The translations under genes and the position numbers were made by a program. From Scenedesmus sp. PABB004 (taxonomy: Eukaryota): a stretch of 64,000 bases of DNA. The stretch is taken from the NCBI GenBank assembly GCA_014905635.1, contig JABVCE010000002.1, positions 2,294,001 to 2,358,000 on the forward strand. The letters run 5' to 3'. This document shows, piece after piece, positions 1-63,900 of the stretch (positions are counted from its first letter, which is position 1; each line of letters starts with the position of its first letter). Below the pieces are notes generated by a model. That model made no database searches. It was not told where the DNA came from and saw nothing but the letters and a program-made list of their open reading frames with translations.

Positions 1-2906
1 GCGGCCCTCGTCGGTCACCGCGGCGAGCACGGTGGAGCTGAACGGCGCCCACGCGACGTCGCCGACCGCGGCGCCGAGGTCAAAGCTCAGCAGCGGCGCG
101 CGCGCCTGCGCGACGTCCCACACCTGCGCCGCGGCGCGGCGCGCGGGCGCGCGGGCGCGGCCGGCACGCTCGGTCGCCGCCGCACACGGGCCCGCCCGCC
201 GGGCTGCGCGCGCCCGCCCGCATGCACTGCCTCCTGCACGCGCTGCCTCCCCGCGCTACCTCCCCGCGCCGCGCCGCGCCTTGACGCTCCAGTCGGCGCT
301 GCACGACGCGAAGAGCCCCGGGTGCAGGCCGTTCCAGCGCACCGCGTAGACCGGCATCGCATGCCCCGCGTAGCTCGCGGCGTAGTCGCTGCCGTAGGCC
401 TTGGAGCACGCGTGGATGGCGCCCTCCTCGGTGCCGACCAGGTACGACTGCTCCCGCCCCGCCGCCGGGCAAAAGTCCATGCACAGCCCGCCCACGACGT
501 GCTGCGCCGCGGCCGGCTCGGCGCCTGCGCCGCCGACGCACCCGTCGGCGCCCGCCGCGCTGGCAGCGCCTGCCGCCGCGGCCGCCGGCGCCGGCGCGAC
601 GGGCGCGGCACCGCCGCTGCTGGACAGCGCCGCGACCGCGGCGACGCCGCCGCCCGCAGCGCGGTCCTTGGTGCTGGACTGCAGCCGCATCAGGCGCTCC
701 GGCAGCAGCTCGCACTTGGCGAGCGTCCAGAGCGTCACGTCGCCGTCGCTGGAGATGGAGGCAAAGGCCAGCGTCTTCTGCAGCTCGTCCGGCTGCCGGC
801 GTGGCGCGGCGCGCGGACGGGCGGCGGCGGCGCGCCCGCGCGTCGGCCAGCCGGCTGGGCGTGCGGGCGGACGCCGCTGCGCGCGCAGACAGAGCCGACG
901 GGCCCCGCCCCGACCGCCGCACCTGCCAGACGACCTGCCACACGGGATCGGAGTGCTTGCGCCCCGTGGCCGCCGTCGTCGCGAGCGGCGCGTCGCCCCG
1001 GGCGCGCACGTCGTACACGGCGACGCTGCCGTCGTAGCACCCCACCGCGAGCAGGTTGGCAAAGGTGGGGTGGAAGTGCAGCGCCATCACGCCTGCGCGC
1101 ACCGCGCCCATCCGCGGGGTCAGAGAGGGCGCGGTCAGCGCGGCGCAGCACGGTCAGAGCGCCCCGCCGGCCGCCGCGCCGCGCACCCGACGGCGTGGCG
1201 ATGGTGCGCTCCGCGTGGGAGGGGTTTTTGAGGCTGAAGACGCTCACCGCGCCGCCGCCCTGGCGCTGAAAGTTGAAGCTGCCGTACGCCGCCGCAAACT
1301 GGTCCGCGTAGCCGCTGCTCCACGCGAGCGCGGTGACGTGCTTGCGCCCGCGCTCGCACCGGAACTGCCACAGCGGCAGCAGCGAGCCCTCGCCCGGCCT
1401 GGCGCGGTCGGCGGCGCGCGGCGCGGCCGCGGGCGGCGGTCGGCCCGCCGCCGCCGCCGCCGCCCGCCGCCGCTGCGGCCGCAGCGCGCGCGCCAGCGGC
1501 GCGCGGCGGCTGCCGCCGCCGGCCCGCCCGCCCGCGCCGCCCCGCCCGTTTGCTGTGCGGCGGCGCACTTGAGCGCGTCCGAGGTGTCCTCCCAGTACTT
1601 GTAGTCGAGCGCCACGTCAGCAAAGGTGTTTTGGTTGACCATGCGGTCCAGGATGCGCAGCCCGTCGAGCAGCCCCGGCGCGCGCGCCCACGCGTCGCCG
1701 CCCGCCGCGGCGGCAGCGGCTGCAGCGCTGCCGCACGCGAGCGCGCCGCCGCTGCAGCTGGTGCCGGCACCGGCGCCGCCGCCGCCGCCGCCAGCCGCCG
1801 CGCCGGGCGCCGCGCCGCCGCCGGGCGCGGGCTTCTTGCCCGCGGCGCGCTGCTTGGCGGCCTCGTCGGCGCGCTGGCGCTCAAAGTCCCGCACGTACTC
1901 GTCAAACATCTCACGCATCGAACATGAGCCTGGGCACGCGCCGGGCGGCGGCGGGGGCGGCGGCGGGGGCTGTCGGCGCCCGGCGGCGCCCGCGGCGGCG
2001 CCCGGGGCGCAGCGCGACTGCGCAGCCGGCGCATGCGCGGCGCGCGCGGACGCACCCGACGCGGTCGCGGTGGGCGGCGGCTCGGTGAGCGTCGCGCGGT
2101 CGCGCGGCGGGTAGACCGCGGTCTGCGCCGCGCGGTCGCTGAAGTTGAACTGATTGCGCAGCGCGCGGCCGTCGGCGGGCGCCGGCTCGGGCGCGGCGCC
2201 GTCGGGCGCCGCGCCGTCGCGCTCGCGTGCGACGCGCTCGGCCGCGGCGCGTGCGTCGGCCTCGGCGCGCTCCGCCTCGAGCTGGCGGCGGGCCTCCTCG
2301 CTGCCTCGGTGCAGCAGCCAGCCGTCGCAGCCAAAGTGCAGCACCGTCTGCTCCACCATGGGCTCGAACTTCCAGGCCCGCTCCTTGGTGTTGAAGCGGG
2401 CCACGTTCTGGGGCGCGACCGGGTTGTTGGCCGACAGCAGGCGCGGCACCTCCTCGGCCAGCGCCGCGTCGCTCAGCGAGAGCTGGTTGGCGGGCCGCAC
2501 GACCTCGCGCGCCGGCTGGCGGCGCGCGCGGCACGCGCGCGGCGGCGCGGGAGTGTGGGTGGGCCGGCGCGGGCGGCGCGGGAGTGTGGGCCGGCGCGGG
2601 CGCGCGCGGGCGGCGCGGCGCCGCGATGCTGGCGGCGAGCAGCCTGCGAGGCCGCACCAGCGCAAACTCGGCCAGCGCCGGCGGCTCCGGCGAGGCCGGC
2701 GGCAGCTTGTCCTTGCCGGCGGCGCCCTTGCGTGCCTGCGCGTCGCGGTGCGGCGCAGCGCAGCGCACGTGAGCCGCAAGCAGTGGCGGGTGTCGCGCCG
2801 GCTCGCCGCCGTGCCGGGGCCCCGCAGCGGCCGCGCGCCGGCGTGCGCGCGCCTTGGCGCCTGCTCCATCCTCCTTGCGCTTGAACAGTCCCGAAAACGG
2901 CGGCAT
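1..2906 (-). CDS. DNAI1: Outer-arm dynein intermediate chain IC78/IC1 (WD40), multi-exon, 3' end runs off the window
   Basis: Joined exons give MPPFSGLFKRK..., LRNQFNFSDRAAQT, ILDRMVNQNTFADVALDYKYWEDTSD, GSLLPLWQF, FAAAYGSFNF, FSLKNPSHAE, GVMALHFHP..LLAVGCYDGSVAVYD, KHSDPVWQVVW and YLVGTEEGAIHACSKAY. These are DNAI1-family motifs. Confidence 0.9.
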
Positions 2907-3551
2907 GGCGCCGCGCGCCGCGCTGCCGCCGCTGCGCCTGCGCTGCCCGCTCGCGCTGCCGGGCGCTCGGCGCGTGTCGGAGGGCGTGGAAGCAGGGCGC
3001 GCGATCCCGGGATGGCGGGGCGGGCGCCGGAGAGCAGGCGCGGGCAGGCGGGCGCGGACGCTGGCGACGGCGTTTGACCGCCCGTCGCAAGGCCCCCGGC
3101 CGCCCCATCAGCCCTCCGGCCAAGCCCTCATGCGGCTCCGCGCGCGCGGCAGCCCACCCGCAGTGCTCAACACCGATCGCCGCCCGCGGGCGTTCGCACG
3201 CGCGCCGCGGGCCAGCGGCACGCCCCAGCGCTCAAGACTGGGAGGGCAGCGCCGCGCCGGCGCCGCAAGCAGTCCAAAGTGGCCAGCGCCCTGCGCCGCA
3301 CAACAGTACCTCCTCAACGACAATGCCCGTCGAGACGGGGACGGGCAGCGCTGCGCCGACGCCGCGAGCAGAGGCCCACAGCGGCCGGCGCCGTTGTTCG
3401 AGCAGGCCGCAGGCCGTGTTGGTCTCCGATCACCGCAGTCTCGAGAGCTTGCAGTAATACGATGCCAATGCATTGTGCAAGACCATGCCGTGCAGCTGCG
3501 AATTGAGCGAGTGCTTTCAGCAGCGCCCCGGTGCGGCTCACGCGGCCGCGG

Positions 3552-11500: not shown

Positions 11501-14500
11501 CCCGACCGGACCCGGCCGCCGAGCGCGACGCCGCAGCCGCCTGGCCGCGGCGCACCCTTGCCGCCGTCCATGTATCGGAGGTAGGGCGCGACCAGGAGGC
11601 GGCAGAACGAGCGCCCCGCGCCCGGCGTCTCCTTGAGCAGCGCCGCGACGCGCGCCTGGCGGCGCGAGGGGCGCGGGGCGCGGCGCGGCGCGGTCGGCCG
11701 CCGCGGGCGGCGCGGCGCGCGCGCAGTGACCGGCCGGCTGTCCGGCAGGCGGGCGCGCCCCGCGCGGCGCCCCGCGCGGCGCGCCGCACCGCGCCCTCCT
11801 CGCGGTTCGGGAAGACGCTGGGCACGAGCAGGCGGTGCAGCTTCTGGCCCACGCCGCCAAACCCGGCGCCGCCGCCGGCCGCGAGCGCCTCGAGCAGCGC
11901 CTCGTTGGGCACCACGTCCCAGAAGTGAAGCGCGCGGCTCGTGCTGCGCGGCGGCGCGGCGCGGTGCGCTGCGTTTCGGCGCGCGCGGCGTGCGCCGGGA
12001 CGCGCGCGGCCGCGGCGCGCGCGCGCGGTGCGCTCACGAGACGCAGAGCAGCAGGTCGGCCATCGCCTCGCGCACGCGCGGCGAGGCGTCCCAGATCATC
12101 GGCGCGAGCGCGGGCAGCGCTTTCTGCGCAGCAGCGGCCGGCACGCGGGGGGAGGGGGACGAGGCGCGTGAGCGCGCGCCGCCGCCGCGCGGCCCAGCCG
12201 CGGCGGCGGCGGCCGCCACGCGCCTTGAGCACCGGCTGCGCGTGCGCGTTGTCCACCAGGGCCTGGAGCCCCTGCAGCACCGCGGCGCGCACGGCCGGCG
12301 ACGCGCCGTCAAACGCGAGCGAGTCTGCGGGCACGGCGCGGCGCGGCGGGGGCGGGGGCGGGGGCGGGGGCGGGGGTCGGCTCGCCGCCGCCTGCTGCCC
12401 ACGCACCGCCACGCACAGTCACACACGCACGCACGCACGCTCACACGTCACGCACGCGCACGCGCGCACACACGCCGCGCACGCACTCGTGAGGCGGGTC
12501 ACGTAGATCGCGGCGGTGGCGGGGGGAATGATCTCCCAATAGAGGTTCAGCACGTCACAGATGCCGGCGGCGGCGACCGCGCGCACGCCGGGCGCGGGGT
12601 CGCTGAGGCCGGCGGAGAGCGCATCAAACTGGGACTGGAGCGTGTCGTCCTGCTCCTGCACGCTCCACTCGGGGTCCTGAGCGGCGCGCGGGGGCCGGGG
12701 CGCGCTCGGCCGCCGGCGCGCCAGGGCGCCGGGCCGGCTGGCGGCGACGGCGCAGCGCGGGGAGCGGCGCAAGCCGCGCCGCGCCGCGCCGCGCCGCGCC
12801 GCGCGCACCAGCACGGGGAAGGCGTCGCAGAGCAGCTGCAGCGAGTTGCGCCGCACGCACGCGTTGGCCGCGGCGAGGCCGCGGAAGAGCAGCGGTCCGT
12901 ACAGGCGCGCGAGCATGCCATCGACGCAGCCGGGCCCGCCGAGGCGCTTCGACGAGTGCAGCGCGCCCAGCACGCGGCGGATGTTGGCGACGAGGCCCTG
13001 CCCCGCGCCGTGGATCGCCGCGGAGATGAGGTTCTGTGCCCCGGACGCAGCGCGGGCGGCGCGGGCGGCGGTCAGCGCGGGCGCGGCGCGCATCTTCGGC
13101 ACGGGGCTGCAAGCCCCCCTCCCCCCTCCTCGGCGCCCACGCGCGCTCCCACGCACGCACGCACGCCCCCCCCCCCCCCCGCAGCCGCGCACCTGGATGA
13201 GGCCGGACTCAATCTCTGCCAGGCACGGCCCCGCCGCGTCGCGCCAGCCCCGCAGGATGACCTCGCCGTACGCGTCCAGCACGCTGCGCCGCCCCGCGGG
13301 GATCTGCGGCGCGCGCGCGCATGCGCGGGCGCGGCGCCGCGGGTCGGCCGGCGGCGGCGCCGGGCGGCGCGCCGCGCGGCGCGGCGCGCGCGGGCCCGGC
13401 CGCGGCGTGCGCGTGCGCCGCGCCTGGTTGCGGATGACGCTCGCCATCTCGGCCACCATGCTCGGGTGGACCGTGAGCAGCGCGGCGAGGAACTTGCGGC
13501 CGTCGGGGCGCGACACAAACGCGGGGCAGATCGCCGCCTGCGGCGCGGCGCGCAACGCGGTGCGGTGTGCCGTTGCGGCGCGTCCAGACGGGGCCCGTGA
13601 GTCAGGCCCCTCACCAACGCCCCCCCCCCTCCCGCCCTCCCCCCGCACGCGCGCGCCGCACCTGCAGCAGCATGCGTTTCGTGTCGTTGATCGATGCGTC
13701 CTCAAAGTCCAGCAGCTCCAGCGCGCCGCGCATCGCGTAGCACGCCTTGACGTGCGCCGCCTTTTGCGTCGAGATCGCGCGCAGCTGCGCGGCCGCCGCC
13801 GGCGCCGCGGGCGGCGGCCGGCCGTGTGAGCAGCGGCTGACCGGGCGCGCGCGCGCACGCCGTGGCGCTGCTGCCAGCCCCGCGCGGCGGCCGCGGCGGC
13901 GGCGCACCAGCAGGTAGGGCAGGGCCTGTGAGACCAGGAACTCCCGGTTCTCTGCCCCCGCCGCCCACCAGGCGCAGCAGAGCTTCACGACCGCGTCCTG
14001 CACGTCCGGCCGCGCGTCGCCGAGCTCCTGCGGCGGCGGGCGGCCGTGGGCGCCGCGCCGCGCTGCGCGCGCGCCTGCGGGCGCTGCCGCCCGCGCTGCG
14101 GCCGCCCGCGCTGCCGCCGCCGCCGCGCACCAGCAGCGCGTGGTCGTGCAGCTGGATCGCCGCCGTCATCAGGCCGTCGGGCGGGCTGGCCGCGCACTCG
14201 GCGAGCGCCTCGGCCGCGAGCAGCGCCGCCAGGCGCAGCGCGCTCAGCGCCGCCGCGAGCTCGGCGCTGCGCCCGTCGGCGCCGCCCAGCTCCTCGCCCT
14301 CCTCCGGCATCGCGTCCGCCAGCGTCGCCAGCGCCGCGTCGACCTGCGCGCCGGGCACGCGCGCGTCCCGCCGCGTGCGCGTCGGCCGCCGCCGTGGGCG
14401 CCCTGCGCCGCGGCTGGCCGGCGCCGCGGCGGACCCTGCCCTCCCACAATCTTTTAGCACCACCACCGCCACACCTGCGTGTGCAGTCCCTCGCAGAACG

Positions 14501-15103: not shown

Positions 15104-15868
15104 TCACCTTCCGACCGCTGCCGCCTCGCCCGCCTGCTGCTGCTCCGCCGCCGCCGCGGCCGGCAGCGGCGCGTGCGCGGACACAAACCCCACCACGGCG
15201 TCGCACAGCTCCGCGCACACGGCGGCGCTCGCGCGGAAGTTGTGGTCGCCGCCCGGCACGACCACGAGCTCCGACGGCCCGCCCAGCGCGGCCGCGATCG
15301 CGCGCCCGTCTTCCACTGGGATGACCGCGTCGGCGTCGCCGTGGACGGTGAGCACGCGCGCGGTCACCGCCGCCGCCGCGGCGCGCACGTCAGTGCCGAC
15401 GCGCTGCTCGAGGTCCTGCAGCGGCGGCGGCGCAAGCTCAGCTCAGCGGGCGTTGCACGGCGCCGCCGCCTGGTGCCCCCGGCCAGCGCGCGCGCGCTCG
15501 CCTCGGCGGTCAGCTCCCACGTGAAGCGGTGGCCGTCGTCGCGCTGCACCGACACGGCCACCGGCCCGCGCCGCACGCGCTCAAAGATGTATGCGCCGAA
15601 GCGCTCCTGTGCCGCCGCCGTGCGGCGGTCGTCGGCGCGGGCGCCTGCCGCGCGTGCCCGCGCCGCGCGCGCGCGCGCGGCCGCGCCTTGAGCCCCCGCT
15701 CCATGCGCCAGCGGCCCGCCGCGTTGATGATGAGCGGGACGGTGCAGTCGCGCGACGCCGCATAGAGCAGCACCGACGTCGCGCCCTTGCTGTGGCCTGC
15801 CGCGCGAGCGCCCGGCGGCGGCGGGTGCGGCGGCGTTGGGGCGCGGCCGGTCGCAGCGACAGGGCACG

Positions 15869-16758: not shown

Positions 16759-19700
16759 TCACGCCTCCATCGCGTCCTCGTACTTGCGGTCCGCGTCGCC
16801 GCTGCCGCCCGCGCCATACTCCTCGTCGCTGCCGCTGCCGTCGCCGCTGCCGTCGCCGCTGCCGCTGCCGCTGCCGCCCTCCTCGCCGCCGTCGCTGCCG
16901 GACGCGTCGCCGCTCTGTGCCGGGGCGGCGGCGGCGGCGACGGGCGCGGGGTGAGCGGGGCATGCAGCGCGCGGCGCGCCGCGGGCGCGAGGCGCGTGGT
17001 GTGGGTGCCATTTGGAGCCGTGCGCGGCCCACGGGCGGGGGCCGTTAGGTAACGAGTGGCACCCCGGGGTCTGCTGCTGTGGGTTGAATCGTACTAGTTG
17101 GGACGCTACCGCGCACAGCGGCCCAACACTCTCGCAACCGTGTGCTGCCTGCTGCCGCTGCGCCCGCGCGCGCCCTGGCGCCGCGCGCGCCCCGCCCCGC
17201 GCCCCGCGCCGCGCCGCGGCGCACCTCGCTGCCGCTGCGCAGGCCGTCGGCGTCGTTCGCGGCGTCAAAGTCAAAGTCTGACCCCGGCTCCTCGCCGTCG
17301 TCGTCGTCGCTGTCGTCGCCGAGGCCCGCCGCCGCGGCGCTCGCAAAGTCGGCCTTTGCGCGCTTGGCGCGCTGCCGCTCCGCGCGCGCGCGCTTGGGGT
17401 TGTGCTGCCCCAGCTCCGCGTACAGCTCCGCCGTCTGGCCCTTGGCGCCGGCCTTGGCGCCGCGCGGCGCGGCCGCGGGCGCGCCGTACGCGTCCGCGTC
17501 GCCCTCGTCCATGGCGGCGCCTGCGGCGGCGGCGCGGCGGCGCGGGCGTCGGGCGCCGGGCGCCGCGGGGCGCGGCGCAGCGCACGGCGCGGGCGCGGCG
17601 CGCGGGGCGCACCGTCTGCGTCGGCCTCCTCCGCCTCCCCTGCCTCCTCTGCCTCCATCTCCGCCAGCCCCGCCGCGACCGCGCCGGCCGAGGCGGCCTC
17701 GAAGAAGCCCGCGGTGTTGTCCTCGAGCGAGGGCAGGTGCTGGATGACTGCGCTCGCCTCGGCCGCAAACACCCTGCGCGCGCGCGCGCGCGCGGGCGCG
17801 CGGGCGGGGCGCGTCGGCGGCGGGCGGCGGCGGCGGCAGGCCCCCGCGGCGGCGGCGTTTGCGCAGGCCCCCGCGCCGAGCGCCGCGCACTTGTCGGCGT
17901 CAAACTCGGCCGCCCAGTCGCCGACGACGGCCGCGGTGTCGTACGCGTCGTTGGGCCGCGCCGCGGGCGGGGAGGTGTAGTATGGGATGACGCCGCTGTT
18001 CCAGTCCTGCAGCACGATACGCGCGGCGGCCTGCGCGGGCGCCGGCGCGCAGCGCGGGCGGCGGGGCGGCGGGGCCGCTGGGCGCGCGGCGCGGCGCGGC
18101 GCACGAGGGAGGGCGCGAGAGGGGAGGGAGGGAGGGAAAGAGAGAGAACGGGAGAGGTGTGGTGTGGGGTGCAGCCCACAGAGAGGGATGTGGGTGCCGA
18201 TATTCGAAGATCAGTGCATCGCCCTGGAGCGGGCTCCCCATCCCCGGAGATCGGCACCGCCGCCGCTCTGGCCCCTGCTTGAAACCGTGGCAGCACCGCG
18301 GCCGCCGCCACAGCTCTTCACTTCAGGGCCGCGCCGCGCCGCGCCGCGCGCGTGCGACGCTGCGCCCCGCCCCCGCCGCCGCCGCCGTTGCTGCCGACAC
18401 CGCCGCGGCGGCCCCCGGGCGCACCTCCGTGTCCACGACGCCGCCCTTCTTGAGCTTGCCGCGCGCCGCCGCGATGGCCTGCAGGAAGCCGTCCAGCCCC
18501 TCAAACGCGCCCACGCGGTACACCGCCATCAGCTGCGCCGCCGGCACGCGGCGCAGGATCTCGGCCACGGGCGTGAGCGGGTCGGCCAGGCGCTCGACCT
18601 GCGCGGCGCGGCGCGGCGCGGCGCGGCGCGTGGGAGGGCGGCGGGCGCGGGGGCGGGCGCGGGGGACGGCGCCGCCGGCGGCTGGGCGGCGCGGCGCGCC
18701 TTGACCGCGTTGCGCAGCGCCGCCGCCGCCGCGCCCTCGCCGCTCGTGAAGACGATGCCGGGCGAGTCCAGCAGCCTGCGGCGGCGGCGGCGGCGGCGCG
18801 GTTGGCGGCGGCGTGCGCGGTCGGCGGCCGGGTCAGCGAGGCCGGGCGAGGGCGGCACGCCGCGCATCATCATCATGCTGGCCCCACCTGATGTGCTTGT
18901 CCAGGTGAATCTCCTGCACGCCCTTGGTCACGCCCGGCGTGGAGCCGACCTGCGCGGGCGCCGCGCGGCGGCGGCAGCGGTCAGCGCCCGGGCCGGCAGC
19001 GGCCCGCCGCGCGCCGGCCTGGCGGCGGCAGCAGCCTGGCGGCGGCGGCGCAGCGGCGGCCTGGCGGCGGCGCGCACCTGCGCGACGCGCGCGCGCTTGA
19101 GGCTGTTGATGAGGCTCGACTTGCCCACGTTGGGCAGGCCGATCACGCCGACCGTGATGCTGCCCTTGCCCTTGCCGCCCATCGCGTTGCGCGCATAGTT
19201 CTTCAGCAGCTGCGCGTGTGTGCGTGCGTGCGTGTGCGTGTGCGTGTGTGTGGGAGCGCGGGGGGGGGGGGGGGGGCAGGTGAGAAGAAACGCACGAGCG
19301 AGAGAGATGGGGAGGGGGAGGGAGCCAGGGGGCAGGCGGAGCGGCGCGCGGCACGAGAGGCCCCGCGCGGGCGCGCGGGCCCACCTGCAGCAGCGTCTCG
19401 GCGCCGAGGCAGCCCGCGCCGGCGGCGCCGGCGGCGCCGGCAGCGCCCGCCGCCTTGCCCTTGGCGCCCTTGGCGCGCGCGGCGCCGCCGCGCGTGCGCG
19501 CGAGCCCCTCGGCCTGCTGCTGCGTGGAGGCCTTGAACCCCAGCGCCGGCAGCTCCTGGCGGTAATACTTGAGCCACGCCTCGCCGACCTCCCGCGGCAC
19601 CAGGTCTGCCGCGCGGGCGCGGGCGGCGGCGCGGCGGCGGCCGGGCGCGCGTCGGCCGCCGCGAGCTCTTGCGCGCGCGCTGAGCCCCGGCCGCCGCTGA

Positions 19701-21125
19701 GCCCCGGCCGTCGCTGCGCCCCCGCCGTCGCTGAACCCTGGCGGCCGTCGCTGAACCCTGGCAGCCGTCGCCGCCGCTGGCTGGCTCACCCATCTTGTTC
19801 AGCAGCAGCACGATGCGCTTGCCGGGGTCGAGGCTGCGCACGTAGCGCTCGACGTCGGGGCAGCGGCAGCCCGCGGGGTCGCGCGCGTCGAGGACCTGAA
19901 TCACCACGTCGCTCGACTCGACGACGCGCCGAAACTCCTTGTAAAAGGCGCGCCGCGAGTTGTCTGCGCGCGGCGCGCGGCCCGCGGCGCGGCGGGCTGA
20001 GCGCGTGGCGCGAGCGCTCGCACGCAAGAGAGAGAGGGAGAGAGGGAGGGGAGGGAGAGGGAGTGAGAGGGGTGGTTGGAGTGAACTGTGGGTGCCGATA
20101 TTCGAAGATCAGTGCATCGCCCTGGAGCGGGCTCCCCATCCCCGGAGATCGGCACCGCCGCCGCTCTGGCCCCTGCTTGAAACCGTGGCAGCACCGCGGC
20201 CGCCGCCACAGCTCTTCACTTCAGGGCCGCGCCGCGCCGCGCCGCGCGCGTGCGACGCTGCGCCCCGCCCCCGCCGCGCCGCGCCGCGCGCACCCGCGTC
20301 GCCAGCGCCGCCGCCGTCGCTCGCCAGCTTGGCGCGCTTGCGCGCCTCAAAGTCGCTGGCCTTGTGCCCCGCGCTCGCCGCGAGCGCCGCGAGCGCCTGC
20401 GGGTCGCCGAGCTCCGCCTCCATCGCCCCCGCCGCGCGCTCCTGCGCGCAGGAGACGGGGGGGGGGGGGGGGGGGGGCGTCAGCTGCCGACCCCCGCGCC
20501 GTACCGCGCTGCGCGCTGCGTGCGCTGCGTGCCGCGTGCGCCGCGTGCCGCGCGCGCCGTGCGCCGTGCGCCGCGCGTCACCTCGCGCGCGCGCTTCTTG
20601 GCCTCCTTCTTGGCCTTGTCCGCGAGCAGGACCTGCTGCCGCTTCCAGGCCATCTCCTTGAGCAGCTCCTCCTTGAAGGGCCACTGCGAGGGGATGCCCG
20701 GGTCCTTGGGCTCCTGCGGCGGCGGCGAGCGGGCGGCGGCTTGGTTGGCGGCGGCGAGCCCCGGCGGCAGCGCCGCCAGCGCGGCGCGCGGGCGCGGCGT
20801 GGGCGCGGGCGCGGCGCGGGCGCGGCGCACGCGCCTTGGGCTTGATGCCGGCCTTGGCGCGCTTGCGCTCCTCCTTGCGCTTCTTCTTGTGGTGCTCGCG
20901 CACCTTCTTGATGACCTGCGCGCCGCCGGCCGCGGCGGCGGCGGGTCGGCGGCCGCGTCCTGCGGCTGCACCATTGCGGCGCGCGGGCCCCGCGCCGGCG
21001 GGCTGTGGGCCGCCGGGCCGCCGGCGGCGCGCAGCCAGCAGCGCGACCCCGCGGCGGACCTTGTACTTTTGCTTCAGAGACATGCGCTTGCTCTTGGACT
21101 TTTTGGACCGCTTGGCGCCCACCAT
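16759..21125 (-). CDS. NSN1: Nucleostemin-like circularly permuted nucleolar GTPase (GNL3/NSN1/Nug1 family)
   Basis: Basic N-terminus [74 protein letters not shown]1 motif [33 protein letters not shown] and [14 protein letters not shown]. Acidic C-terminus. Confidence 0.95.
16997..17142 (-). ncRNA. Intronic box H/ACA snoRNA (type 1) in the last GTPase intron (16915-17224)
   Basis: Minus strand: GGTTG-[CGAGAGT]-GTTGGG..CCCAAC-[TAGTACGATT]-CAACC, H box ACAGCA (17075-17080), second hairpin GGGTGCCA..TGGCACCC, then ACA (17000-17002) plus 3 nt. Both pockets complement conserved 25S rRNA sequences. Confidence 0.85.
18186..18330 (-). ncRNA. Intronic box H/ACA snoRNA (type 2, copy 1) in intron 18031-18424
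   Basis: Hairpin 1 GGCCCTG-[AAGTGAAG]-AGCTGTGGCGGC/GCTGCCACGGTT-[TCAAG]-CAGGGGCC, hinge AGAGCG, hairpin 2 GGTGCCGAT-[CTCCGG]..[TCGAAT]-ATCGGCACC, then ACA at 18189-18191. Confidence 0.88.
19679..19770. repeat. Degenerate 17-20 bp intronic minisatellite (GCTGA(A/G)CCC..GCCGTC)
   Basis: Five related units. The last two, gctgaaccctggcggccgtc and gctgaaccctggcagccgtc, differ at one base. Confidence 0.7.
20084..20228 (-). ncRNA. Intronic box H/ACA snoRNA (type 2, copy 2) in intron 19964-20293
   Basis: Identical to copy 1 from the ACA box (20087-20089) through the 5' hairpin. Only the 3 nt after ACA differ. Confidence 0.88.
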
Positions 21126-26859: not shown

Positions 26860-27172
26860 GGCGCCCGCTCGCCCCCGGCGGGCGGCGCGGCGCGGAGAGG
26901 GCGCGCTGGCTCGGCTGTTGCTGCCGACCGCGGCTGCGCGAATGGGCGCGCCTCTGCTCAAGGTCCCGGCGAGTGGGCGTGTGTCCGCTCACGGACGCGG
27001 CAGACTGGCGCGGCGGGAGGGGGCGCGCGGGCAGGCGAGCGAGCGCGGCGGCACAGCGTGTTGCACCGCGGCAGCGGCGCGGCGCGGCGCTTTTGCCGAC
27101 GACCGCCGTCAGCTGCGGCTGGCCGCGCCGCCGCCGCCGCCGCCGGTCGGGCCACCGCCGCCGCCCGCGCCG

Positions 27173-39460: not shown

Positions 39461-40066
39461 TCAGAGCGCGAGGATGAAGGCTTTGATGCGGGTCAGCAGC
39501 TCTGCCTTGACGCTGTCCGGCACCGCCGCGCGGCCCTCGGGCCGGACGAAGCGCGCGATCTCCTCGGCGCTCGCGCCGTCGGGGCCGCACGTCGACAGGT
39601 ACTCTGCGGCGGCGGCGCGCGCCGGCGTGGCGCCGCGGCGGCGGCCGCCGGCTGGGCGGGGCCCGCAGCACGCGGCGCGCGCTCGCAGGACGGGCGGCGG
39701 CGGGGGCAGGCAGGCAGCACGGCGGCGGCCTCGCACCGCGGCAGCGCGCCTTGACCTCGTCGCGCCAGCCGCACTCGGTGAGCTTGTCGCGCAGCAGCGC
39801 CTTCAGCCGGTCGCGCTCGCCCGACTTGATGAGCTGCGCGGCGGCGCGGCGGCGCGGCGGCGGTCGGGGGGCTGCTGGGTGCTGCTGGGGGGCCGAGCCC
39901 CCGGCGGCGCCACGCCCTCGAGGCCCGGCCGCGCCGCGCGCCGCCGCCGTGCGCCGCCGCCGTGCGCCGTGCGCCGCCGTCTTGCGCCGCGCCGCCGGCG
40001 CGCGCCGCGCCGCGCCTGCTGTCTGATCCTGGCCTCCAGGTCGCTGGGCTCCTTGGGCTGGCTCAT
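39461..40066 (-). CDS. ENY2: Transcription and mRNA export factor ENY2/Sus1
   Basis: [76 protein letters not shown], the classic ENY2 sequence pattern. Confidence 0.95.
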
Positions 40067-48080: not shown

Positions 48081-49464
48081 TCAGAAGCCGTCCTGCGAGC
48101 GGCGCGCGGCGGTCGGGGCCTGCGCGCCGCGCGCCGCGCGCCGCTCCCGCGCAGCGCGGCGCCGCCGGGGCGGGCTCACGAAGTAGCACATCACGTCGCT
48201 GGTCGTCCACTTGGTGCTCGTGTCGACGTCGTGGAGGCCCATCGTGTACGTCGGCGCCATGACCTCGACCACGTCCTGCGGCGCGCCGCGGCGCGGCGCG
48301 CGGCGCGGCGCAGCGCGTGGGCGCGCGCCGCCGCCGCTCCTGCCGCGCCCCGCCGCCGCTGGCCCCGCTGCGTCTGCGGCGCGCGCGGCGCCGCCGCTGC
48401 TAAACCCCCGCGCCTGCAGTATGAGGAAGCCGAAGAGCGGCGTGAAGTCGAGCTGGCCGAACAGCGGCGGCAGAATGCCGCGGTAGATCTGGAGGTACGG
48501 CTCCGTGATCTGGCGGCGCGGCGGCGGCGTTACGTGGCAAGGCGGCGGGGCGGCGGGGCGGCGTTGGGGCGGCCGGGGGCGGCGGGCGCGCGGGAGGCGC
48601 GAGAGGGAGCAAAGGGAGAGAGAGGGGCAGAGCGAGAGAGACGGAGCGAGAGGGCGGGAGGGAGGGGGCGCGGGGGGCGCACCAGGCGCAGGAAGGTCCA
48701 GGGCTGCGCGTTCCAGTCGATGCCGGGGAACCAGCTGAGCAGCACGCGCATGAAGAGGCAGAAGACATACATCTGTGTGCGTGTGTTGCGTGTGGCGCGG
48801 TTTGTTGTGGGCGCGCGGCGCGTGTGGGCGCGCGCCAACCACGCGTGCGAGCGCGCGGCCGCCGCGCGGCGCCGCGCCCGCGGCCGCGGCGGAGCCGCGG
48901 GGCGCGCCTTGGCAAAGCCGAACGCCGCCTTCTCAAACGTGCGCGCGTAGACGGCGGTCAGGCTCTCCTGGCTCACGCGCGCGAGCGGCAGCACGAGCAC
49001 CGCCATGGTGCGCATGTTGCGGTAGAGGCCCAGCAGCTGCGCCTGCGCGACCTGCGCGCACGCGGAAAGGCGCGGCGCGGCGCGGGTCGTGCCGCGCCCA
49101 GCGCAGCGGCTGCCGCCGCCGCCGCGCGAGCCCCGCGCGCGCGCCGCGCCTGCTTGTCGACGCCCTGCAGCTGCGGGAACGCCTGAGCGAAGCGCTCGCG
49201 CGCCGCCGCGAAGAAGGCCTGGCACGCCGCGACGACGCTCGCGGCGAGCTGCCACGCCGGCTGCTGCTGCGCCGCCGCCGCGAGCTGCGCCCAGCCCGCC
49301 GCGGCACCGCTGCTGCTGCAGCGGATCTGCAGCGCGCCCGCCCGCCGCGAGCCCGGGGCGGGGCGGGCGGGCGGCGCCAGCGCGGGCAGCCGGCTGCTGC
49401 CGCCCCGGCGCGCGCCCGCCGCGGCCGGCCGGCCCAGCCCGACGCCACGCGACGCCAGGAGCAT
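48081..49464 (-). CDS. YLMG: YGGT/YlmG family chloroplast membrane protein
   Basis: MYVFCLFMRVLLSWFPGIDW..QPW.FLR.|ITEPYLQIYRGILPPLFGQLDFTPLFGFLILQ. Transit-peptide-like N-terminus (..LQIRCSSS). Confidence 0.92.
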
Positions 49465-57995: not shown

Positions 57996-60900
57996 ATGGC
58001 CGCCGCGCGCGTGGACGCCGCACTGCTCGCGTACCGCCGGCTCGCCATCTACGGCACCAAGTCGCGGCTCTACGTCGTCGGCCACGACGACGACGGCCCG
58101 CGGCGGGCGTGCCGCATCCTCAAGTTCCGCCGCCAGGACGGCCCGCGCCTGGACGTGGTCGAGGACCCCACGATCTACTCGCCGCCGCAGTGCGAGGCCG
58201 TGCTGCGCAGGGTGCACGAGCAGAGCGGCGGCCTGCACCTCGTCTGCAAGGTGGCCGGCCGCGCGCGCGACGACGCACGCGCCGCACGCGCCGCCGCGCT
58301 GCCCACGCCCGCGCCCGCGCCCCGCCACACATACGCCCCGCCAGGGCCACGGCATCATCGGGTGCTTTCGGTTCACCGACTCCTTCTACCTCCTGGTCGT
58401 CGCGCGCCGCGAGTTTGTAGGCCACATCGCCGGTGCGCGGCGCGGCGCGCCCGGGCGCTCCCGACGCCTCCCCCGCCTGGCGGCCGCGACGCGCCGCGGC
58501 GCGCCGCCCGCCCCAACACCCCGCCCCGCGCACGCGCGCCGCGCCGCGCGTGCACGTGCCGTGCTGTGCGGCGGCGTGGTCGCAGGGCACAAGGTGTACC
58601 GCATCGCCGAGACCTGCCTCATCAGCCTCTCCGCCAGCCAGCAGCGCATCGACGCGAGCGCCGCCGACAGCACCGCCGAGAAGCGGTGCGGGTCGCCGCC
58701 CCGCCCGCTGTCTCCCTCGCTCTGCCCACTGTCCCTCTCGCACACACCCGCTCTCGCACACGAGCACGCACGCACCAACCCACCCACTCACGCACACAGG
58801 TACCGCAAGCTCCTGCTCGGCGTCGACCTGACCAAGAATTTTTTCTTCTCATACTCCTACAGCCTCGCCCACAGCCTGCAGCACAACCACACCGCGTACC
58901 ACGCGGCGCGGCGCCCGGGCGGCGACGCCGGCGGTGACGGCGGCGGCGGCGACGGCGACGCCGACGGCGCGGCGCCGGGCGCGGCGGCGGCCGCGGCGGC
59001 GGCGGGCGTGGCGTCGTACGACAGCTGCATGTTTGTGTGGAACAGCTTCCTCACGCGCCCCCTGCGCAGCGCGATCGGCAGCGCGCGCTGGACGCTGCCC
59101 CTCATCCACGGCTTCTGGGAGCAGCGCCAGGTGCGCGCGGCGGCGGTGGCGCCGGCCGGCCGGCCGCCGCAGCGAGCATTGCTGGCGGCGCTGCCCCGCG
59201 CGCGCGCGCGCGCTCACGGCGCCGCCGCGCGCGGCGCGCCGCCGCGGCGCCGCAGGTGTCGGTCTTTGGCCGCGCGCTCACGCTCACGCTGCTCGCGCGG
59301 CGGAGCCGCCACTTTGCGGGGACGCGCTTTCGCAAGCGCGGCCTGAGCGCGCAGGGCTTTGTGGCCAACGAGGTTGAGACTGAGCAGATTGTGGACGCCG
59401 GCGTTGACTGGGCGACCGGGCAGCCGCTCTGGTCGGCCGTCGTGCAGGTCGGCCGGCGCGCCGCGCCCCGCCGCCGGGCGCGCGCGCAGGGGCTTCAAGC
59501 TCTCTCTCTCTCCGCCGCCGCCGCAGGTACGCGGCAGCGTGCCGCTCTTCTGGAGCCAGCAGGCGACGCCGCTGAGCCCCAAGCCTGACATCCTACTGCA
59601 GCAGTTCGACCCCGTGTACGAGGTGCGGCCCCCGCGCCGCCGCGCCGCGCCGCCGCCGCCTCGCGCGAGGGCCCGCCGCCCCCCACGCGCACGCACGGGC
59701 GGGAGAGCATGAGCAGCACGCGCTGCGCGCGCCCCCCGCCGCGCGCCGCCGCCCACGCGCCGCGCCGCCTCGGCCGGGGGCGGCCCGCAGAAGACGGCCG
59801 TCCACTTTGCCGACCTGCGGCGGCGCTACGGGGACCCGATCATCGCACTCAACCTGCTCAAAAGCAAGGAGCGGCGGTGAGGAGCCGCGCTGCGCCTGTG
59901 CCTCGCCGCGCGGCGCCCTATGCCGCGCCGCGCCGCGCCGCGCCGCGCCGCGCCGCGCTCTGTGCCGCCTCTCCCTGCAGGCGTGTCCACCACCCCGCCG
60001 TGCCCGCCCCGCCCGCCCACGCGCCCCGCCCGCCACGCCCGCCCGGCGCGGCGCAGCGCGCGCGAGGTGCTGCTGCGCCGCGAGTTTGGCGCCGCCGTCG
60101 CGCTCATCAACGCGCGCCTGCCGCCGGAGCAGCACGTCGTCTACATACCCTGGGGTGCGGCCGGCGCGCGCACGCCGCAGCGCACATGCCGCGCGCGCAC
60201 GCGCCGCGCACGCGCCACACACACATGGCGCAGGCCAGCCGCGCGCGCCGCGGCGGCGCCACGCCCGACGCGGCCCGCGCGCGGCGGCGGCGTCCGCGCC
60301 GCGCCGCAGACTTCCAGAAGCACGCGAAGCAGCCGGGCGCCAACATCCTGACCGAGATGCGGCCCCTGATCGACGTCTGCCTCGACGCCTCGGGTGCGTG
60401 CACACGCCGCGCCGCTGCGCCGCCCCGCCGCCGCCGCCGCCGCTGCCCCACCGCCGCCCTGCAGCCCTCCGGGCTCCCTGCCGCCCCGCCGCGAGCCGCG
60501 CGCGCTGATGCAGCCGCCGCCGCCGCCGCGCGCGCACCCCGCAGGCGTGTACGTGCACGGGCCCGCGTCGTGCGCGTCGTGCGCGCCCGCCATCGCGGAG
60601 CGCTTCGCCGCGCGCGCGCGCGGCGGCGCCGCCGGTGCCGCCGCCGGCGCCGCGCCCAAGCCCCGCACCTTTGCGCCGGCGACGCGGCTGCAGCGCGGCG
60701 TGCTGCGCACCAACTGCATCGACTGCCTCGACCGCACCAACGTCGCCCAGTTTGCGTTTGGGCTCGCCGCGTTTGGCCGGCAGCTCGCGGGCCTCGGCGT
60801 GCTGCACGAGGGCGGCGACGTCGACAGCGACAGCTCCATCGCGTTTGCGCTGATGGAGATGTACGAGGCCATGGGCCACACCGTCGCGCTGCAGGCGCGA

Positions 60901-63900
60901 GACGCGCGCGCGCCCGCGGCGCCGGCGCCCGCGGCGCGCCCCGCGGCGCCGGCCGCGCGGCGCCGCCGCCCGCGGCGCAACTCCTCGTCCGGCCGCGCGC
61001 ATGACGACGGCCCGGTCCGCGCCGGTCCGCGCCGGTCCGCGCAGTACGGCGGCAGCGAGGCGCACGCGGCGTTCTTCCAGAAGAAGCGCGGCGAGTGGGA
61101 CGCGACGACGCAGTCGCGCGACCTCGTCACCTCGATCAGGCGCGCGCGCCGCGCGCCCCGCGCCCCGCGCCGCGCCGCCGCGCCGGCCCCGCCCTCGCAC
61201 ACCCGTCCACGCCCGCGCACGCACCCACACCGCCGTCTCACACCCGCCCACGCCGCCCACACCTGCACCCGCACCCACACCCACACACGCAACACCCACA
61301 CCCCCACCACACCCACGCACGCACCCACACCGCCGTCACACACCCGCCCACGCCGCCCACGCGCCCCCAGGCGCTTCTACAACAACGCCTACACCGACGC
61401 TGAGAAGCAGGACGCCATCAATCTCTTCCTCGGCAACTACGTCCCCGGCCTGCCCGGCGCGGCGGGGCCCGGCGCGGCGCCGCCGCTGTGGGAGCTCGAC
61501 AGCGACTACTACCTGCACTCGGGTGAGCCGGGCTGAGCTGAGCTGGGCCGAGCTCGGCGGCCTCCTCCGCCGAGAGCAGAGGGGAGAGGGCAGAGAGCAG
61601 AGAGGGCGAGAGCGAGGCGCGCCGCGCGCGCCGCCGCCGAGCCCCGCCGCCGCCGCCCGCCGCCTGCCGCAGACGCGGCCGCGCGCTTCGAGCAGTTCCT
61701 CGGCGGCGACCGCCTCGCGCTGCCCGGCGGCGCGGCGCCGGGCGGCGCGCCGCAGGCGGCCACGGCGGGCGGGCGCAACGCGCCGGTCATCCTGCGCCAG
61801 CTCTCCGCGACCACGCTGCCGCCCTCGGCGCTCGGCTTTGGCAGCGCGGACGCCGGCGGCGGCGACGCCGGCGGCGACGGCGGCGCCGCGCCCGCGCGCG
61901 CCCGGCGGCGGCGTGGATCTACGCTACGCCCTTTGCGGCCGCAGCCGCCGCCGCGCCCGCCGGGGGCGACGCCAGCCCCCCGCGGCGGCGGCGCAGCGAG
62001 GGCGGCGCGGGGCCGCTGCTGCCGCTGAGCTTCTCCGACGGCATCGCTCTCGACGCGTGCGAGAGCGAGGCCGTCCCCGCCGCGTCGGAGGGCGCGTTCA
62101 GCTGGCGCCTCTTCTCGCAGCTGCTCTCGTCCGAGACGCCCCACCCGGGCGCGGCCGCGCCGGCGGCCCCCGCCTCAGCGCTGGTCAGCATGGACAACGT
62201 GCTCGCCAAGCTCCCGCGCAGCCGGCCGGTGCGGCTATATCCCGTCAGTACGCGCGGCGGCAGCGGCATGTGGGAGGCGGTGCAGCAGGCGTTTGCATTC
62301 TTCAGCACCGGCGAGGCCGCCGTCGCGGCGGCCGCAGCGGCGGCGGCCGCGGCGGCGGGCCAGGCCGGCGGCGCCGGGGCCGGCGCGGCGGCGGCCGCCG
62401 GCGCGGCGGGCGGCGCGGCGAGCAGCAGCGCGGTCGTGAGCGGCCCGCCGTACGCGATCCGCGCACTGGACCTCACGCAGCCGGCGGCGGCCAGGGCGGC
62501 CGCGGCGGCGGCGGCGGAGGCGGCGCCGCAGACGCCAAGCGTTGCGGGCGACAGCCCCACGAGCGCGGGCGCGGCCGGCGCCGCGCTCACGGCCGGCGCG
62601 GGCCCCGCTGGCTTCGAGGCCTTTGCCGCGGCCTACACCGCCCCCGCCGCCAGCCCGCGCACGCCCGCCGCCGCCGGCCGCGGCGGCTCGCTGGACGCCG
62701 GCGGCGAGTCGCCGGCGCGCCTCCGCGGCGGCGGCGGCAGCGCGGGGCTGCGCAGCCAGCCCGCGCCGGCCGTGTCAGGGTTGAACGACATCCTGGAGAT
62801 TCGCACCGACGTCACGCCCGTTCGCCTCATCAGCAAGCCCGACCGCCCGCCCGCGGCGATCGGCCCGCACGGCCCCGTGTCGGCGCCGCCGGCGCTCCTG
62901 GACGCGACGCTGGACGAGCTGATGTGGAGCCAGCTCGGCGTGCAGCTCGCGCCGCCGGGCGGCGCCGGCGCCGGCGGCGGGGGCGGCGCGCGGGCCGCTG
63001 CCGGCGCAGCCGCTTGCGCCGCGGCCGCCGGCGCTGCCGGACAGCAGCGGCGGCGGCGGCGGGCTGGCGGGATTCCCAGGCCCGGCGCCGGGCAGCCCCA
63101 ACGCGGAGGCGGCGGGCGTGGCCGACCGCGTGTGGGGCAGCCTGGGCGCGGTCGTGCGCGGGCGCTCGGCCGCTGGCGCCGCCGGCAGCCGCTGCGGCGG
63201 CGGCGGCGGGACGAGCCTGTCGCCCCTGAACGACATCGTCCAGGTGCAGCGCCCGGCGCCCGGGCCGCGACGCCCAGCGGCGACAGCGGCGCGCCGCTGC
63301 TGCTCGCGGGCGGCAGCGGGCGCGTGTCGGCGGCGGCCGGCGGCGGCGGGGGCGGCCGGTTCACGAGCAGCTTCGCGGCGGCCAGCAGGGCCGGCGCGGC
63401 CCCGGCGGACGCCGGCGCCGGCGCGCCGGCTGGCGTCGAGACGCCGCGGCGGCCGGGCCCCGACGGCAGCGAGGCCGGCAGCGGCGGCAGCGGCAGCACG
63501 CAGGGCGTCGTCGGCAGCAGCGGGCGCGTGAGCTTCATGCCTGCGGCGCGCCCCGGCGGCGGCTCCTTCAGCAGCAGCAACGCCGGCAGCTGCGCGCAGC
63601 GCCTGCCGTCGACGGGCGTGCTGCCGCTGTCGCCGCCGGGCTCGCCGCCCGCGTGCGCCGCGGCGCCGGGCGAGCGCGAGTGGCTGATCGTCGACGGCCA
63701 CGCCGTGCCGATGCCAAGCAGCGCGCGCTCGGGCAGCACGGCGCACGACGACGCGGCCGCGGACGCCGACGCCGGCGGCGACGCGCAGCCGGCCCTGGGC
63801 GCCGCGGCGCTGGCGTACTGGCGCAGCCAGGGGGAGCAGCAGCCCGCCGGCGGCTTGGCCGCGGCCGCGGCGGCGCCGGGCCCCGGCGCGGGGCAGGACG

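What the first reader, a model, noticed from the sequence alone, without database searches (positions are those of the whole stretch)
2851..61141. Very high frequency of GC-AG introns with a fixed (A/C)AG|GCG context
Seen: about 17 or more junctions in conserved reading frames can only be joined using a GC donor. Approximate positions: DNAI1 2852, CAP-G2 13422 and 12223, hydrolase 15687 and 15501, NSN1 20834 and 18699, WRAP73 22709 and 22969, RMC1 38360, 37456 and 36824, ENY2 40015, YlmG 49149, 48907 and 48413, FIG4 60895 and 61140. Nearly all read AAG|GCGCG or CAG|GCGCG (one is GAG|GCGAG). That is over 10% of roughly 100 introns here. Established: GC-AG is normally about 1% of introns and needs a near-perfect U1 match, yet these also have C at +4. 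Inference: relaxed or re-tuned 5' splice-site recognition, possibly via variant U1/U6 snRNAs.
Basis: partly seen in the sequence, partly recalled or inferred. Interest (0 to 1): 0.75.

Follow-up and report, generated by a model that had tools for sequence, protein, structure and literature searches.

The report
Frequent GC-AG introns in GC-rich alga
About a fifth to a quarter of the introns in this extremely GC-rich green-algal DNA begin with GC instead of the usual GT; this is real, but it matches what is already known from other GC-rich algae and fits ordinary splicing rules.

Summary
The window is about 80% GC nuclear DNA of a chlorophycean green alga; its best protein matches are Sphaeropleales. 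I aligned 47 homologous proteins to four genes (FIG4, NSN1, DNAI1, RMC1) with my own spliced aligner. This gave 37 introns: 28 GT-AG and 9 GC-AG (24%). When any donor dinucleotide was allowed, 30 of 32 consensus introns still began with GT (24) or GC (6). The other ten are re-found only by a self-trained gene model.

C at +4 is the general donor consensus here (GTGCG). GC donors occur only after (A/C)AG (9 of 9, against 10 of 28 GT donors). Their match to the canonical U1-complementary consensus is about the same as for GT donors (5.8 against 6.1 of 9). This is the classical compensation of U2-type GC-AG introns. At three GC introns, relatives carry GT at the same position. High GC-AG fractions are published for Emiliania huxleyi and pelagophytes. 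No RNA data or snRNA genes were available. Verdict: a new member of a known kind, of moderate interest.

The parts
60895..61044 (+). FIG4 GC-AG intron, CAG|GCGCGA...GCAG, 150 nt, phase 0
   Evidence: 10 of 14 homolog alignments. 6 of 6 in the donor-agnostic control. Best GT alternative loses 26.9 per homolog. Relatives P0002 and P0003 read Val (GTN) after ALQ, and P0006 shows the spliced junction [10 protein letters not shown].
61140..61370 (+). FIG4 GC-AG intron, CAG|GCGCGC, 231 nt, phase 2
   Evidence: 11 of 14 alignments. 6 of 6 in the agnostic control. Best GT alternative loses 51.5 per homolog.
20714..20834 (-). NSN1 GC-AG intron, AAG|GCGCGT, 121 nt (not a multiple of 3)
   Evidence: 7 of 12 alignments use this exact pair; the other 5 use other GC donors. 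Best GT alternative (GTGCGC 4 nt downstream, with a non-CAG acceptor) loses 15.4 per homolog. It did not reach 3 of 6 votes in the agnostic control, so the margin is weaker.
18599..18699 (-). NSN1 GC-AG intron, AAG|GCGCGC, 101 nt (not a multiple of 3)
   Evidence: 11 of 12 alignments. 6 of 6 agnostic. GT alternative loses 20.0 per homolog.
124..279 (-).
   Evidence: 9 of 10 alignments. 6 of 6 agnostic. GT alternative loses 19.0. Stop on read-through.
38232..38360 (-). RMC1 GC-AG intron, CAG|GCGCGC, 129 nt
   Evidence: The two closest homologs align TFELQ|GPLPASAAVRQFL to FELH|GPLPASAAAREFL. GT alternative loses 16.8 per homolog over 5 homologs. Below 3 of 6 votes in the agnostic control.
37357..37456 (-). 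RMC1 GC-AG intron, CAG|GCGCGG, 100 nt (not a multiple of 3)
   Evidence: 9 of 11 alignments. 6 of 6 agnostic. GT alternative loses 39.4. Five relatives' unspliced ORFs read Val (GTN) after LDLQ.
36995..37170 (-).
   Evidence: 10 of the 11 alignments use a GC donor here but at differing positions; one (P0176) used a GT donor. Best in-frame GT alternative scores 4.9 against 36.2 per homolog. Boundaries were chosen by consensus motif.
36718..36824 (-). RMC1 GC-AG intron, CAG|GCGCGC, 107 nt (not a multiple of 3)
   Evidence: 9 of 11 alignments. 5 of 6 agnostic. The GT alternative 6 nt downstream loses only 12.5 per homolog. Relative P0167 reads Val after ALYLQ.
13304..13423 (-). CAP-G2 GC-AG intron, CAG|GCGCGG, 120 nt
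   Evidence: Pfam Condensin2nSMC profile positions 3-39 | 40-76 abut exactly at the junction. Predicted by the model.
2736..2852 (-). DNAI1 first intron, AAG|GCGCGC, 117 nt (predicted only)
   Evidence: Model. No in-frame GT-AG alternative. N-terminal length of 44 aa before PAREVV is like that of homologs. Weak support.
12124..12223 (-). CAP-G2 GC-AG intron, AAG|GCGCGT, 100 nt (predicted only)
   Evidence: Model. GT alternatives have donor PWM scores of 0.5 or less.
15607..15686 (-). Hydrolase GC-AG intron, AAG|GCGCGG, 80 nt (predicted only)
   Evidence: Model. No GT dinucleotide at all in the searched interval.
15416..15501 (-). Hydrolase GC-AG intron, GAG|GCGAGC, 86 nt (predicted only)
   Evidence: Model. 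No in-frame stop-free GT-AG alternative.
22709..22830 (+). WRAP73 GC-AG intron, CAG|GCGCGC, 122 nt (predicted; partial outside support)
   Evidence: Model. The upstream exon aligns over all 94 residues to a solved WRAP73-like chain, residues 153-245, ending at GSYDQ/GSYDE. The WD40 profile stretch 2-33 of 39 ends at the last exon residue.
22969..23071 (+). WRAP73 GC-AG intron, CAG|GCGCGC, 103 nt (predicted only)
   Evidence: Model. Spacing to the next match on the WRAP73-like chain is 81 against 71 residues, consistent with removal. A GT 6 nt upstream (CCG|GTGCAG) is a weaker alternative.
39834..40015 (-). ENY2 GC-AG intron, CAG|GCGCGG, 182 nt (predicted; partial support)
   Evidence: Model. 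Exon 2 starts at residue 20 of human ENY2 (4dhx_B) and at EnY2 profile position 8. Exon 1 supplies 17 residues from its ATG.
48276..48413 (-). YlmG GC-AG intron, CAG|GCGCGG, 138 nt (predicted; partial support)
   Evidence: Model. The upstream exon matches YGGT profile 35-64 of 70 up to its last residue.
48773..48907 (-). YlmG GC-AG intron, AAG|GCGCGC, 135 nt (predicted only)
   Evidence: Model. The downstream exon starts at YGGT profile position 6. GT alternatives score poorly.
49052..49149 (-). YlmG GC-AG intron, CAG|GCGCGG, 98 nt (predicted only)
   Evidence: Model. GT alternatives score poorly.

Best explanation
These are ordinary U2-type spliceosomal introns whose donor carries C instead of T at +2.

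The genome is under extreme GC pressure. Intron interiors are 49% C and 6.6% T, and GC3 in exons is 92%. T-to-C changes at +2 therefore arise constantly. They are kept only where the rest of the donor still pairs well with U1. That means the exon must end in (A/C)AG and the intron must continue GCG at +3..+5.

A at a third codon position is rare here, so such exon ends sit almost only in phase 0, after CAG (Gln) or AAG (Lys) codons. Within that context T and C at +2 are about equally frequent. Outside it only T is found.

Shown: the intron positions, the donor classes, the context rule, and GT at the same positions in relatives. Inferred: the mutation-pressure cause, and the use of an unchanged U1/U2 spliceosome.
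For: Census.
- 9 GC and 28 GT introns from 47 homolog alignments in 4 genes.
- With any donor dinucleotide allowed, 24 GT, 6 GC and 2 other among 32 consensus introns.
- GT alternatives at the 9 GC introns lose 12.5-51.5 units per homolog.
- 5 of the 9 GC introns have lengths not divisible by 3, and one more has an in-frame stop.

Context rule.
- MAG at -3..-1 in 9 of 9 GC donors against 10 of 28 GT donors, p=0.0011.
- Among verified MAG donors 9 of 19 are GC; among non-MAG donors 0 of 18.
- Phase 0 in 8 of 9 GC introns against 13 of 28 GT introns.
- Matches to CAG|GTRAGT average 5.78 for GC and 6.14 for GT.
- All 37 acceptors are CAG, and intron length and GC content are alike in both classes.

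Composition. Intron interior C 0.487, T 0.066. Exon GC3 0.915.

Relatives. Unspliced ORFs read Val (GTN) where the window reads Ala (GCG) at RMC1 37456 (5 proteins), RMC1 36824 (1) and FIG4 60895 (2).

Literature.
- GC 5' splice sites are used by the major spliceosome and are compensated by a stronger remaining consensus. Fractions are high in GC-rich organisms, near 40% in Aureococcus (PMC3167603, passages).
- 56% GC-AG in E. huxleyi (PMC4028052, passages).
- 14-17% in pelagophytes (bioRxiv 10.1101/2024.10.30.620910, passage).
Against: - There is no RNA evidence from this organism; every junction rests on protein homology or on a model.
- Three of the 9 GC introns (20834, 38360, 37170) lie in poorly conserved flanks and did not reach 3 of 6 votes in the agnostic control.
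- 36824 and 20834 each have a GT within 6 nt whose use costs only 12.5-15.4 units per homolog.
- One intron counted as GT (17612) is ambiguous: a GC pair scored slightly higher, 44.4 against 41.2.
- Three GC introns (60895, 61140, 38360) are multiples of 3 without stops. Their removal rests on homology alone.
- The snRNAs were never seen, so an unchanged U1 is assumed, not shown.
- The sample is one 64-kb window and four genes.
Confidence: 0.75

Rival explanations
1. The splicing machinery itself is re-tuned. A variant U1 (for example a changed base opposite +2), U6 or an associated protein makes C at +2 as good as T.
For: Among donors ending in MAG, C and T at +2 are about equal (9 of 19). 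That is far above the ~1% usual elsewhere (PMC3167603). Even GT donors pair weakly with canonical U1, at 5-7 of 9 positions.
Against: GC donors need more compensating consensus than GT donors: MAG in 9 of 9 against 10 of 28, and 0 of 18 non-MAG donors are GC. A U1 that paired with C at +2 would remove that need. With a 7:1 excess of C over T in intron interiors, a 1:1 ratio still implies selection for T. The same phenomenon in other GC-rich algae has been attributed to GC content alone. No snRNA gene could be examined.
Confidence: 0.1
2. Many of the GC 'donors' are not real. In 80% GC sequence, GC...AG pairs are everywhere. The segments could be translated low-complexity insertions, or could be spliced from other sites.
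For: All six frames are open. The motif MAG|GCGCG is as common as chance predicts: 58 against 72.5 +/- 8.6. 14 sense-strand copies are not donors. 3 verified GC introns are in-frame without stops. 6 of 26 model-predicted GC introns lack the consensus and look like artefacts.
Against: 5 of 9 GC introns must be removed to keep the frame, and one more has a stop. Flanking residues are contiguous in up to 11 homologs. With all 16 donor dinucleotides allowed, 6 GC introns keep the same boundaries and no other dinucleotide recurs. All 9 share MAG|GCGCG, a context held by 58 of about 28,000 GC dinucleotides in the window. Pfam positions 39|40 abut across 13423. Relatives have GT introns at the same three positions.
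Confidence: 0.1
3. The C at +2 reflects assembly or base-calling errors (T read as C) in a hard, GC-rich template.
For: Extreme GC and low-complexity sequence. There is one unexplained frame break in RMC1 between 37994 and 38232.
Against: The errors would have to fall at +2 only of donors that end in MAG (9 of 19) and never at other donors (0 of 18). Random errors would not respect that rule.
Confidence: 0.02

Closest known systems
GC-AG introns of Emiliania huxleyi (Feldmesser et al. 2014, PMC4028052; passages read)
   Same: A GC-rich alga in which a large share of introns begin with GC while the acceptor stays AG. The authors attribute this to genome GC content. GT-only gene predictors mis-model such genes.
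   Different: E. huxleyi is a haptophyte with 65% GC and 56-60% GC donors, validated by ESTs and RT-PCR. Here the organism is a chlorophycean green alga. The window is about 80% GC, roughly 20-25% of donors are GC, and there is no RNA validation. GA donors (4% there) were not seen here.
GC-AG introns of pelagophytes (Aureococcus, Pelagomonas): 14-17% in bioRxiv 10.1101/2024.10.30.620910; 'approaching 40%' cited in PMC3167603
   Same: The fraction is of the same order, and it is linked to high genome GC.
   Different: This is a different supergroup (stramenopiles) with few introns per gene. Those figures come from gene predictions.
Ordinary U2-type GC-AG introns of animals and plants (~1% of introns; PMC3167603)
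   Same: GC at +1/+2 and AG at the 3' end. The rest of the donor consensus is stronger and compensates for the +2 mismatch. There are no U12-type motifs.
   Different: The frequency is about 20 times higher. Compensation sits on the exon side (MAG) and at +3..+5 GCG, rather than in the AAGT of the classical GCAAGT donor, because the local general consensus is GTGCG.
U12-type (minor) introns
   Same: A non-GT first dinucleotide is possible.
   Different: U12 donors carry a rigid RTATCCTT box (recalled, not from a call). All donors here read GCGCG or GCGAG.

Membership tests
U2-type GC-AG spliceosomal introns | Intron starts with GC and ends with AG | tested here: met
   9 homology-supported introns are GC...CAG.
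U2-type GC-AG spliceosomal introns | The segment must be removed to restore the conserved protein | tested here: met
   Spliced alignments to 47 homologs. 5 of 9 have lengths not divisible by 3 and 1 has an in-frame stop. The donor-agnostic control keeps 6 of 9 boundaries.
U2-type GC-AG spliceosomal introns | The remaining donor positions are closer to consensus than in GT introns (compensation) | tested here: met
   MAG in 9 of 9 against 10 of 28, p=0.0011. GCG at +3..+5 in 9 of 9 against 18 of 28.
U2-type GC-AG spliceosomal introns | No U12-type donor or branch boxes | tested here: met
   Donors read GCGCG or GCGAG. The U12 consensus is recalled, not taken from a call.
U2-type GC-AG spliceosomal introns | Spliced in vivo at the GC donor (RNA evidence) | not testable with these tools
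   No RNA run was listed.
GC-rich algae with elevated GC-AG fraction (E. huxleyi, pelagophytes) | High genomic GC content | tested here: met
   0.768-0.821 in all sixteen 4-kb bins of the window. The whole genome was not seen.
GC-rich algae with elevated GC-AG fraction (E. huxleyi, pelagophytes) | GC-AG well above 10% of introns, with the acceptor remaining AG | tested here: met
   9 of 37, 6 of 30, and 20-26 of 101 predicted. 37 of 37 acceptors are CAG. This covers the window only, not the genome.
Lineage with re-tuned snRNA recognition of the 5' splice site | U1 or U6 pairing sequence changed | not testable with these tools
   No genome is held. No Rfam match in the window.
Lineage with re-tuned snRNA recognition of the 5' splice site | GC donors need no extra compensation | tested here: not met
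   0 of 18 non-MAG donors are GC, against 9 of 19 MAG donors.

The most novel reading that the evidence does not exclude
In this lineage, C at +2 may be nearly as good as T whenever the exon ends in MAG, because the spliceosome itself has changed. The change could be a variant U1 5' end, U1-C, or U6/Prp8 contacts. In that case the GC class would be a second, fully competent donor type rather than a tolerated weak one. It would be the first such case in green algae.
Probability: 0.08. Interest if true: 0.6.

Novelty: new member of a known kind. Interest (0 to 1): 0.35.

Why it matters
Practical value. Gene prediction in very GC-rich green algae will be wrong at roughly one intron in four or five if only GT donors are allowed. 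This happened with the first E. huxleyi models (PMC4028052). The rule found here, GC donors only after (A/C)AG and almost only in phase 0, can be built into predictors.

Evolutionary value. The window gives a clean natural experiment on selection at +2. Intron interiors have a 7:1 excess of C over T. Against that background, T is fully retained at weak donors and about half retained at MAG donors. I found no paper in the searched library that reports this for Sphaeropleales or other green algae. The general link between genome GC and GC-AG frequency is, however, already in print.

Tried and rejected
- RNA evidence: no RNA holder was listed for window:12001-22000, so read laying could not be used.
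- Whole genome: none is held, so U1/U6 genes and a genome-wide census were out of reach.
- Rfam: no match in the window at gathering thresholds. No match at E<=1 in 17950-20350.
- Earlier scan notes: none for this genome. A word search returned only Ostreococcus notes, which do not bear on this finding.
I replaced it with 124 stop-free coding-potential segments.
- Metagenome scan with the FIG4 exon: 80 loci, but the closest are 67-77% identical. No close relative's genomic copy was found, so orthologous introns could not be compared at DNA level. Unspliced ORFs among the protein hits were used instead.
- Motif over-representation and avoidance: MAG|GCGCG is not enriched. It is not clearly avoided on the sense strand either: 14 non-donor sense copies against 18 antisense. 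This argument was dropped.
- Introner-like repeat origin of the GC introns: all-against-all blastn of 123 predicted introns found no family among the consensus GC introns.
- PDB search with the 46-aa middle WRAP73 exon found nothing.
- The gene model merges neighbouring genes because stops are rare. Only its intron calls inside strand-assigned genic regions were used. 22 of 123 were dropped by the filter (flank coding score below 8, or length above 400). Two verified GT introns were among those dropped.
Full report
What the window is.
The 64 kb are 77-82% GC in every 4-kb bin. With so few A and T, stop codons are rare: 293 stop-to-stop frames of at least 150 aa are spread over all six frames. 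I found candidate exons with a self-trained codon-position score. The best protein matches are Sphaeropleales green algae (Scenedesmus sp., Tetradesmus, Raphidocelis). The FIG4, NSN1 and DNAI1 homologs lie on one 490,671-bp Scenedesmus contig. No genome is held for the window, no RNA run was listed, and Rfam finds nothing in the window.

The contexts.
Seventeen read (A/C)AG|GCGCG and one reads GAG|GCGAG. Two coordinates are off by one base.

Homology test.
I wrote a protein-to-DNA spliced aligner with BLOSUM62 scoring, affine gaps, all three intron phases, an AG acceptor, and GT and GC donors at equal cost. I ran it on four genes with 47 homologs. The introns I accepted are:
- FIG4: 10 GT and 2 GC (60895, 61140).
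- NSN1: 10 GT and 2 GC (20834, 18699).
- DNAI1 (cut by the window end): 5 GT and 1 GC (279).
- RMC1: 3 GT and 4 GC (38360, 37456, 37170, 36824).

That is 28 GT and 9 GC of 37. Thirty-three of these have majority votes. Four rest on less:
- 2657 (GT): 4 of 10 votes.
- 17612 (GT): 2 of 12 votes. A GC pair scored slightly higher there, in a poorly conserved tail.
- 38360 (GC): supported by the two closest homologs, which match GPLPASAA.R.FL straight after the junction.
- 37170 (GC): 10 of the 11 alignments use a GC donor but at differing positions, so the ends are not resolved.

The spliced coding sequences of FIG4, NSN1 and DNAI1 have no stop. RMC1 has one, from an unresolved frame break described below.

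Are GT alternatives possible?
For each intron I enumerated every in-frame, stop-free GT/GC...AG pair within 66 nt of the chosen ends. I scored the joined peptide against each homolog. Of the 25 GT introns with usable anchors (3 had none), the GT pair ranks first in 24. At the 9 GC introns the best GT pair loses 12.5 to 51.5 units per homolog. The weakest margins are 36824 (a GT 6 nt downstream, -12.5) and 20834 (a consensus GTGCGC 4 nt downstream that needs a non-CAG acceptor, -15.4). Five GC introns have lengths not divisible by 3. Intron 279 is divisible by 3 but has an in-frame stop. The other three (60895, 61140, 38360) rest on homology alone.

Control without a donor prior.
I allowed all 16 dinucleotides as donor at equal cost, with 6 homologs per gene. 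This gave 32 boundaries with at least 3 of 6 votes. Twenty-four are GT and 6 are GC, all identical to the earlier calls. Two are CG: one is a 3-nt slide of a GT intron and one is a low-complexity gap. Introns 20834, 38360 and 37170 did not reach the vote threshold. The strict estimate is therefore 6 GC of 30.

The other claimed junctions.
CAP-G2 13423 is confirmed at residue resolution. Condensin2nSMC profile positions 3-39 end the upstream exon and 40-76 begin the downstream one.

I built a Viterbi gene model trained on the 37 introns and their exons. It re-finds all ten and recovers 35 of the 37 training introns. This is not independent evidence, because it was trained on the same motif.

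Independent hints for these ten:
- Three of them (2852, 15501, 15686) have no in-frame GT-AG alternative, and the rest have only poor ones.
- The exon before 22709 aligns over all its 94 residues to residues 153-245 of a solved WRAP73-like chain.
- ENY2 exon 2 starts at residue 20 of human ENY2.
- The exon before 48413 matches YGGT profile 35-64 up to its last residue.

Census.
The model predicts 123 introns in strand-assigned genic regions, and 101 pass the filter (22 dropped). Of the 101, 75 are GT and 26 are GC. Of the 26 GC, 19 read MAG|GCGCG, one reads GAG|GCGAG, and six lack the consensus and are probably artefacts. Overall about 20-25% of introns here are GC-AG.

What distinguishes GC donors.
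- The general donor consensus is G|GTGCG. C at +4 occurs in 19 of 28 GT donors, so it is not a peculiarity of the GC class.
- GC donors are stricter. MAG at -3..-1 occurs in 9 of 9 against 10 of 28 (p=0.0011). AG at -2/-1 occurs in 9 of 9 against 13 of 28 (p=0.005). GCG at +3..+5 occurs in 9 of 9 against 18 of 28.
- Among verified donors ending in MAG, 9 of 19 are GC. Among the other 18, none is.
- Eight of 9 GC introns are in phase 0, against 13 of 28 GT introns. This is expected, because an A at -2 in phase 1 would be a third codon position, and GC3 is 0.915.
- Matches to the canonical U1-complementary CAG|GTRAGT average 5.78 of 9 for GC and 6.14 for GT.
- Acceptors are CAG in 37 of 37. Lengths (median 129 against 140 nt) and GC content (0.89 against 0.86) do not differ notably.
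- Intron interiors hold 48.7% C and 6.6% T. A 1:1 ratio at MAG donors therefore still means selection for T, only weaker.

Relatives.
Some database proteins are unspliced ORFs from relatives' genomic contigs and read through the donor. After the same exon-end residues they read Val (GTN) where the window reads Ala (GCG). This is seen in five proteins at RMC1 37456, one at RMC1 36824 and two at FIG4 60895. P0006 shows the spliced FIG4 junction. The intron positions are therefore shared, and the C at +2 is derived here.

Interpretation.
Everything fits ordinary U2-type GC-AG introns that became frequent under GC pressure and are held within the usual compensation rule. The literature states the following:
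- GC 5' splice sites use the major spliceosome.
- They are compensated by a stronger remaining consensus.
- They are frequent in GC-rich lower organisms (PMC3167603, passages).
- E. huxleyi has 56% (PMC4028052, passages).
- Pelagophytes have 14-17% (bioRxiv 10.1101/2024.10.30.620910, passage).

Genome papers on Sphaeropleales that I opened give GC contents up to 72% but say nothing on splice sites (passages only). Searches combining GC-AG with Chlamydomonas, Sphaeropleales genus names or 'green alga' found no report of this for green algae. The variant-snRNA idea remains untested. It is disfavoured by the strict MAG requirement.

Limits.
The evidence covers one window and four genes. There is no RNA and no snRNA genes were seen.

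Noticed in passing
window 18031-18424 and 19964-20293 (- strand), identical block about 18189-18379: Two NSN1 introns, the longest in the gene, share 85% identity over 342 nt, including a 191-nt block that is 100% identical. The 3' 145 nt fold as hairpin, hinge, hairpin followed by ACA, with z = -3.0. This is the layout of an H/ACA snoRNA inside a nucleolar-GTPase host gene. There is no Rfam match at E<=1. Candidate duplicated intronic snoRNA.
   Followed up: partly
window 37994-38232 (- strand), RMC1: There is a frame break. The exon starting GPLPASAAVRQFL (confirmed by homologs) is in a different frame from the next conserved block RLWLLKMYGRVY. No GT donor and no CAG acceptor that fits lies between them. 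It needs an intron whose length is 1 modulo 3, or an assembly indel in a Pro/Ala-rich low-complexity stretch.
   Followed up: partly
   Followed up: yes
all 37 homology-supported introns: Every acceptor is CAG (37 of 37). Branch-like CTGAC/CTCAC motifs were found in only about a third of intron tails.
   Followed up: partly
window 59877-60056 (+), compared with P0001/P0005: The Tetradesmus FIG4 models appear to read through or duplicate sequence at the position of this GT intron (RPREV... repeated). This suggests mis-annotation in the relative.
   Followed up: no
window about 20442-20581 (- strand): An NSN1 intron holds an uninterrupted run of about 21 C just upstream of its acceptor.
   Followed up: no
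window 25136-26868 (- strand): A gene with two CCCH zinc fingers encodes long Gly/Met repeats, (GGM)n and (MGGG)n.
   Followed up: no
window-wide: The FIG4, NSN1 and DNAI1 homologs sit on a single 490,671-bp contig of a Scenedesmus species, so gene order is conserved over at least 60 kb.
   Followed up: no
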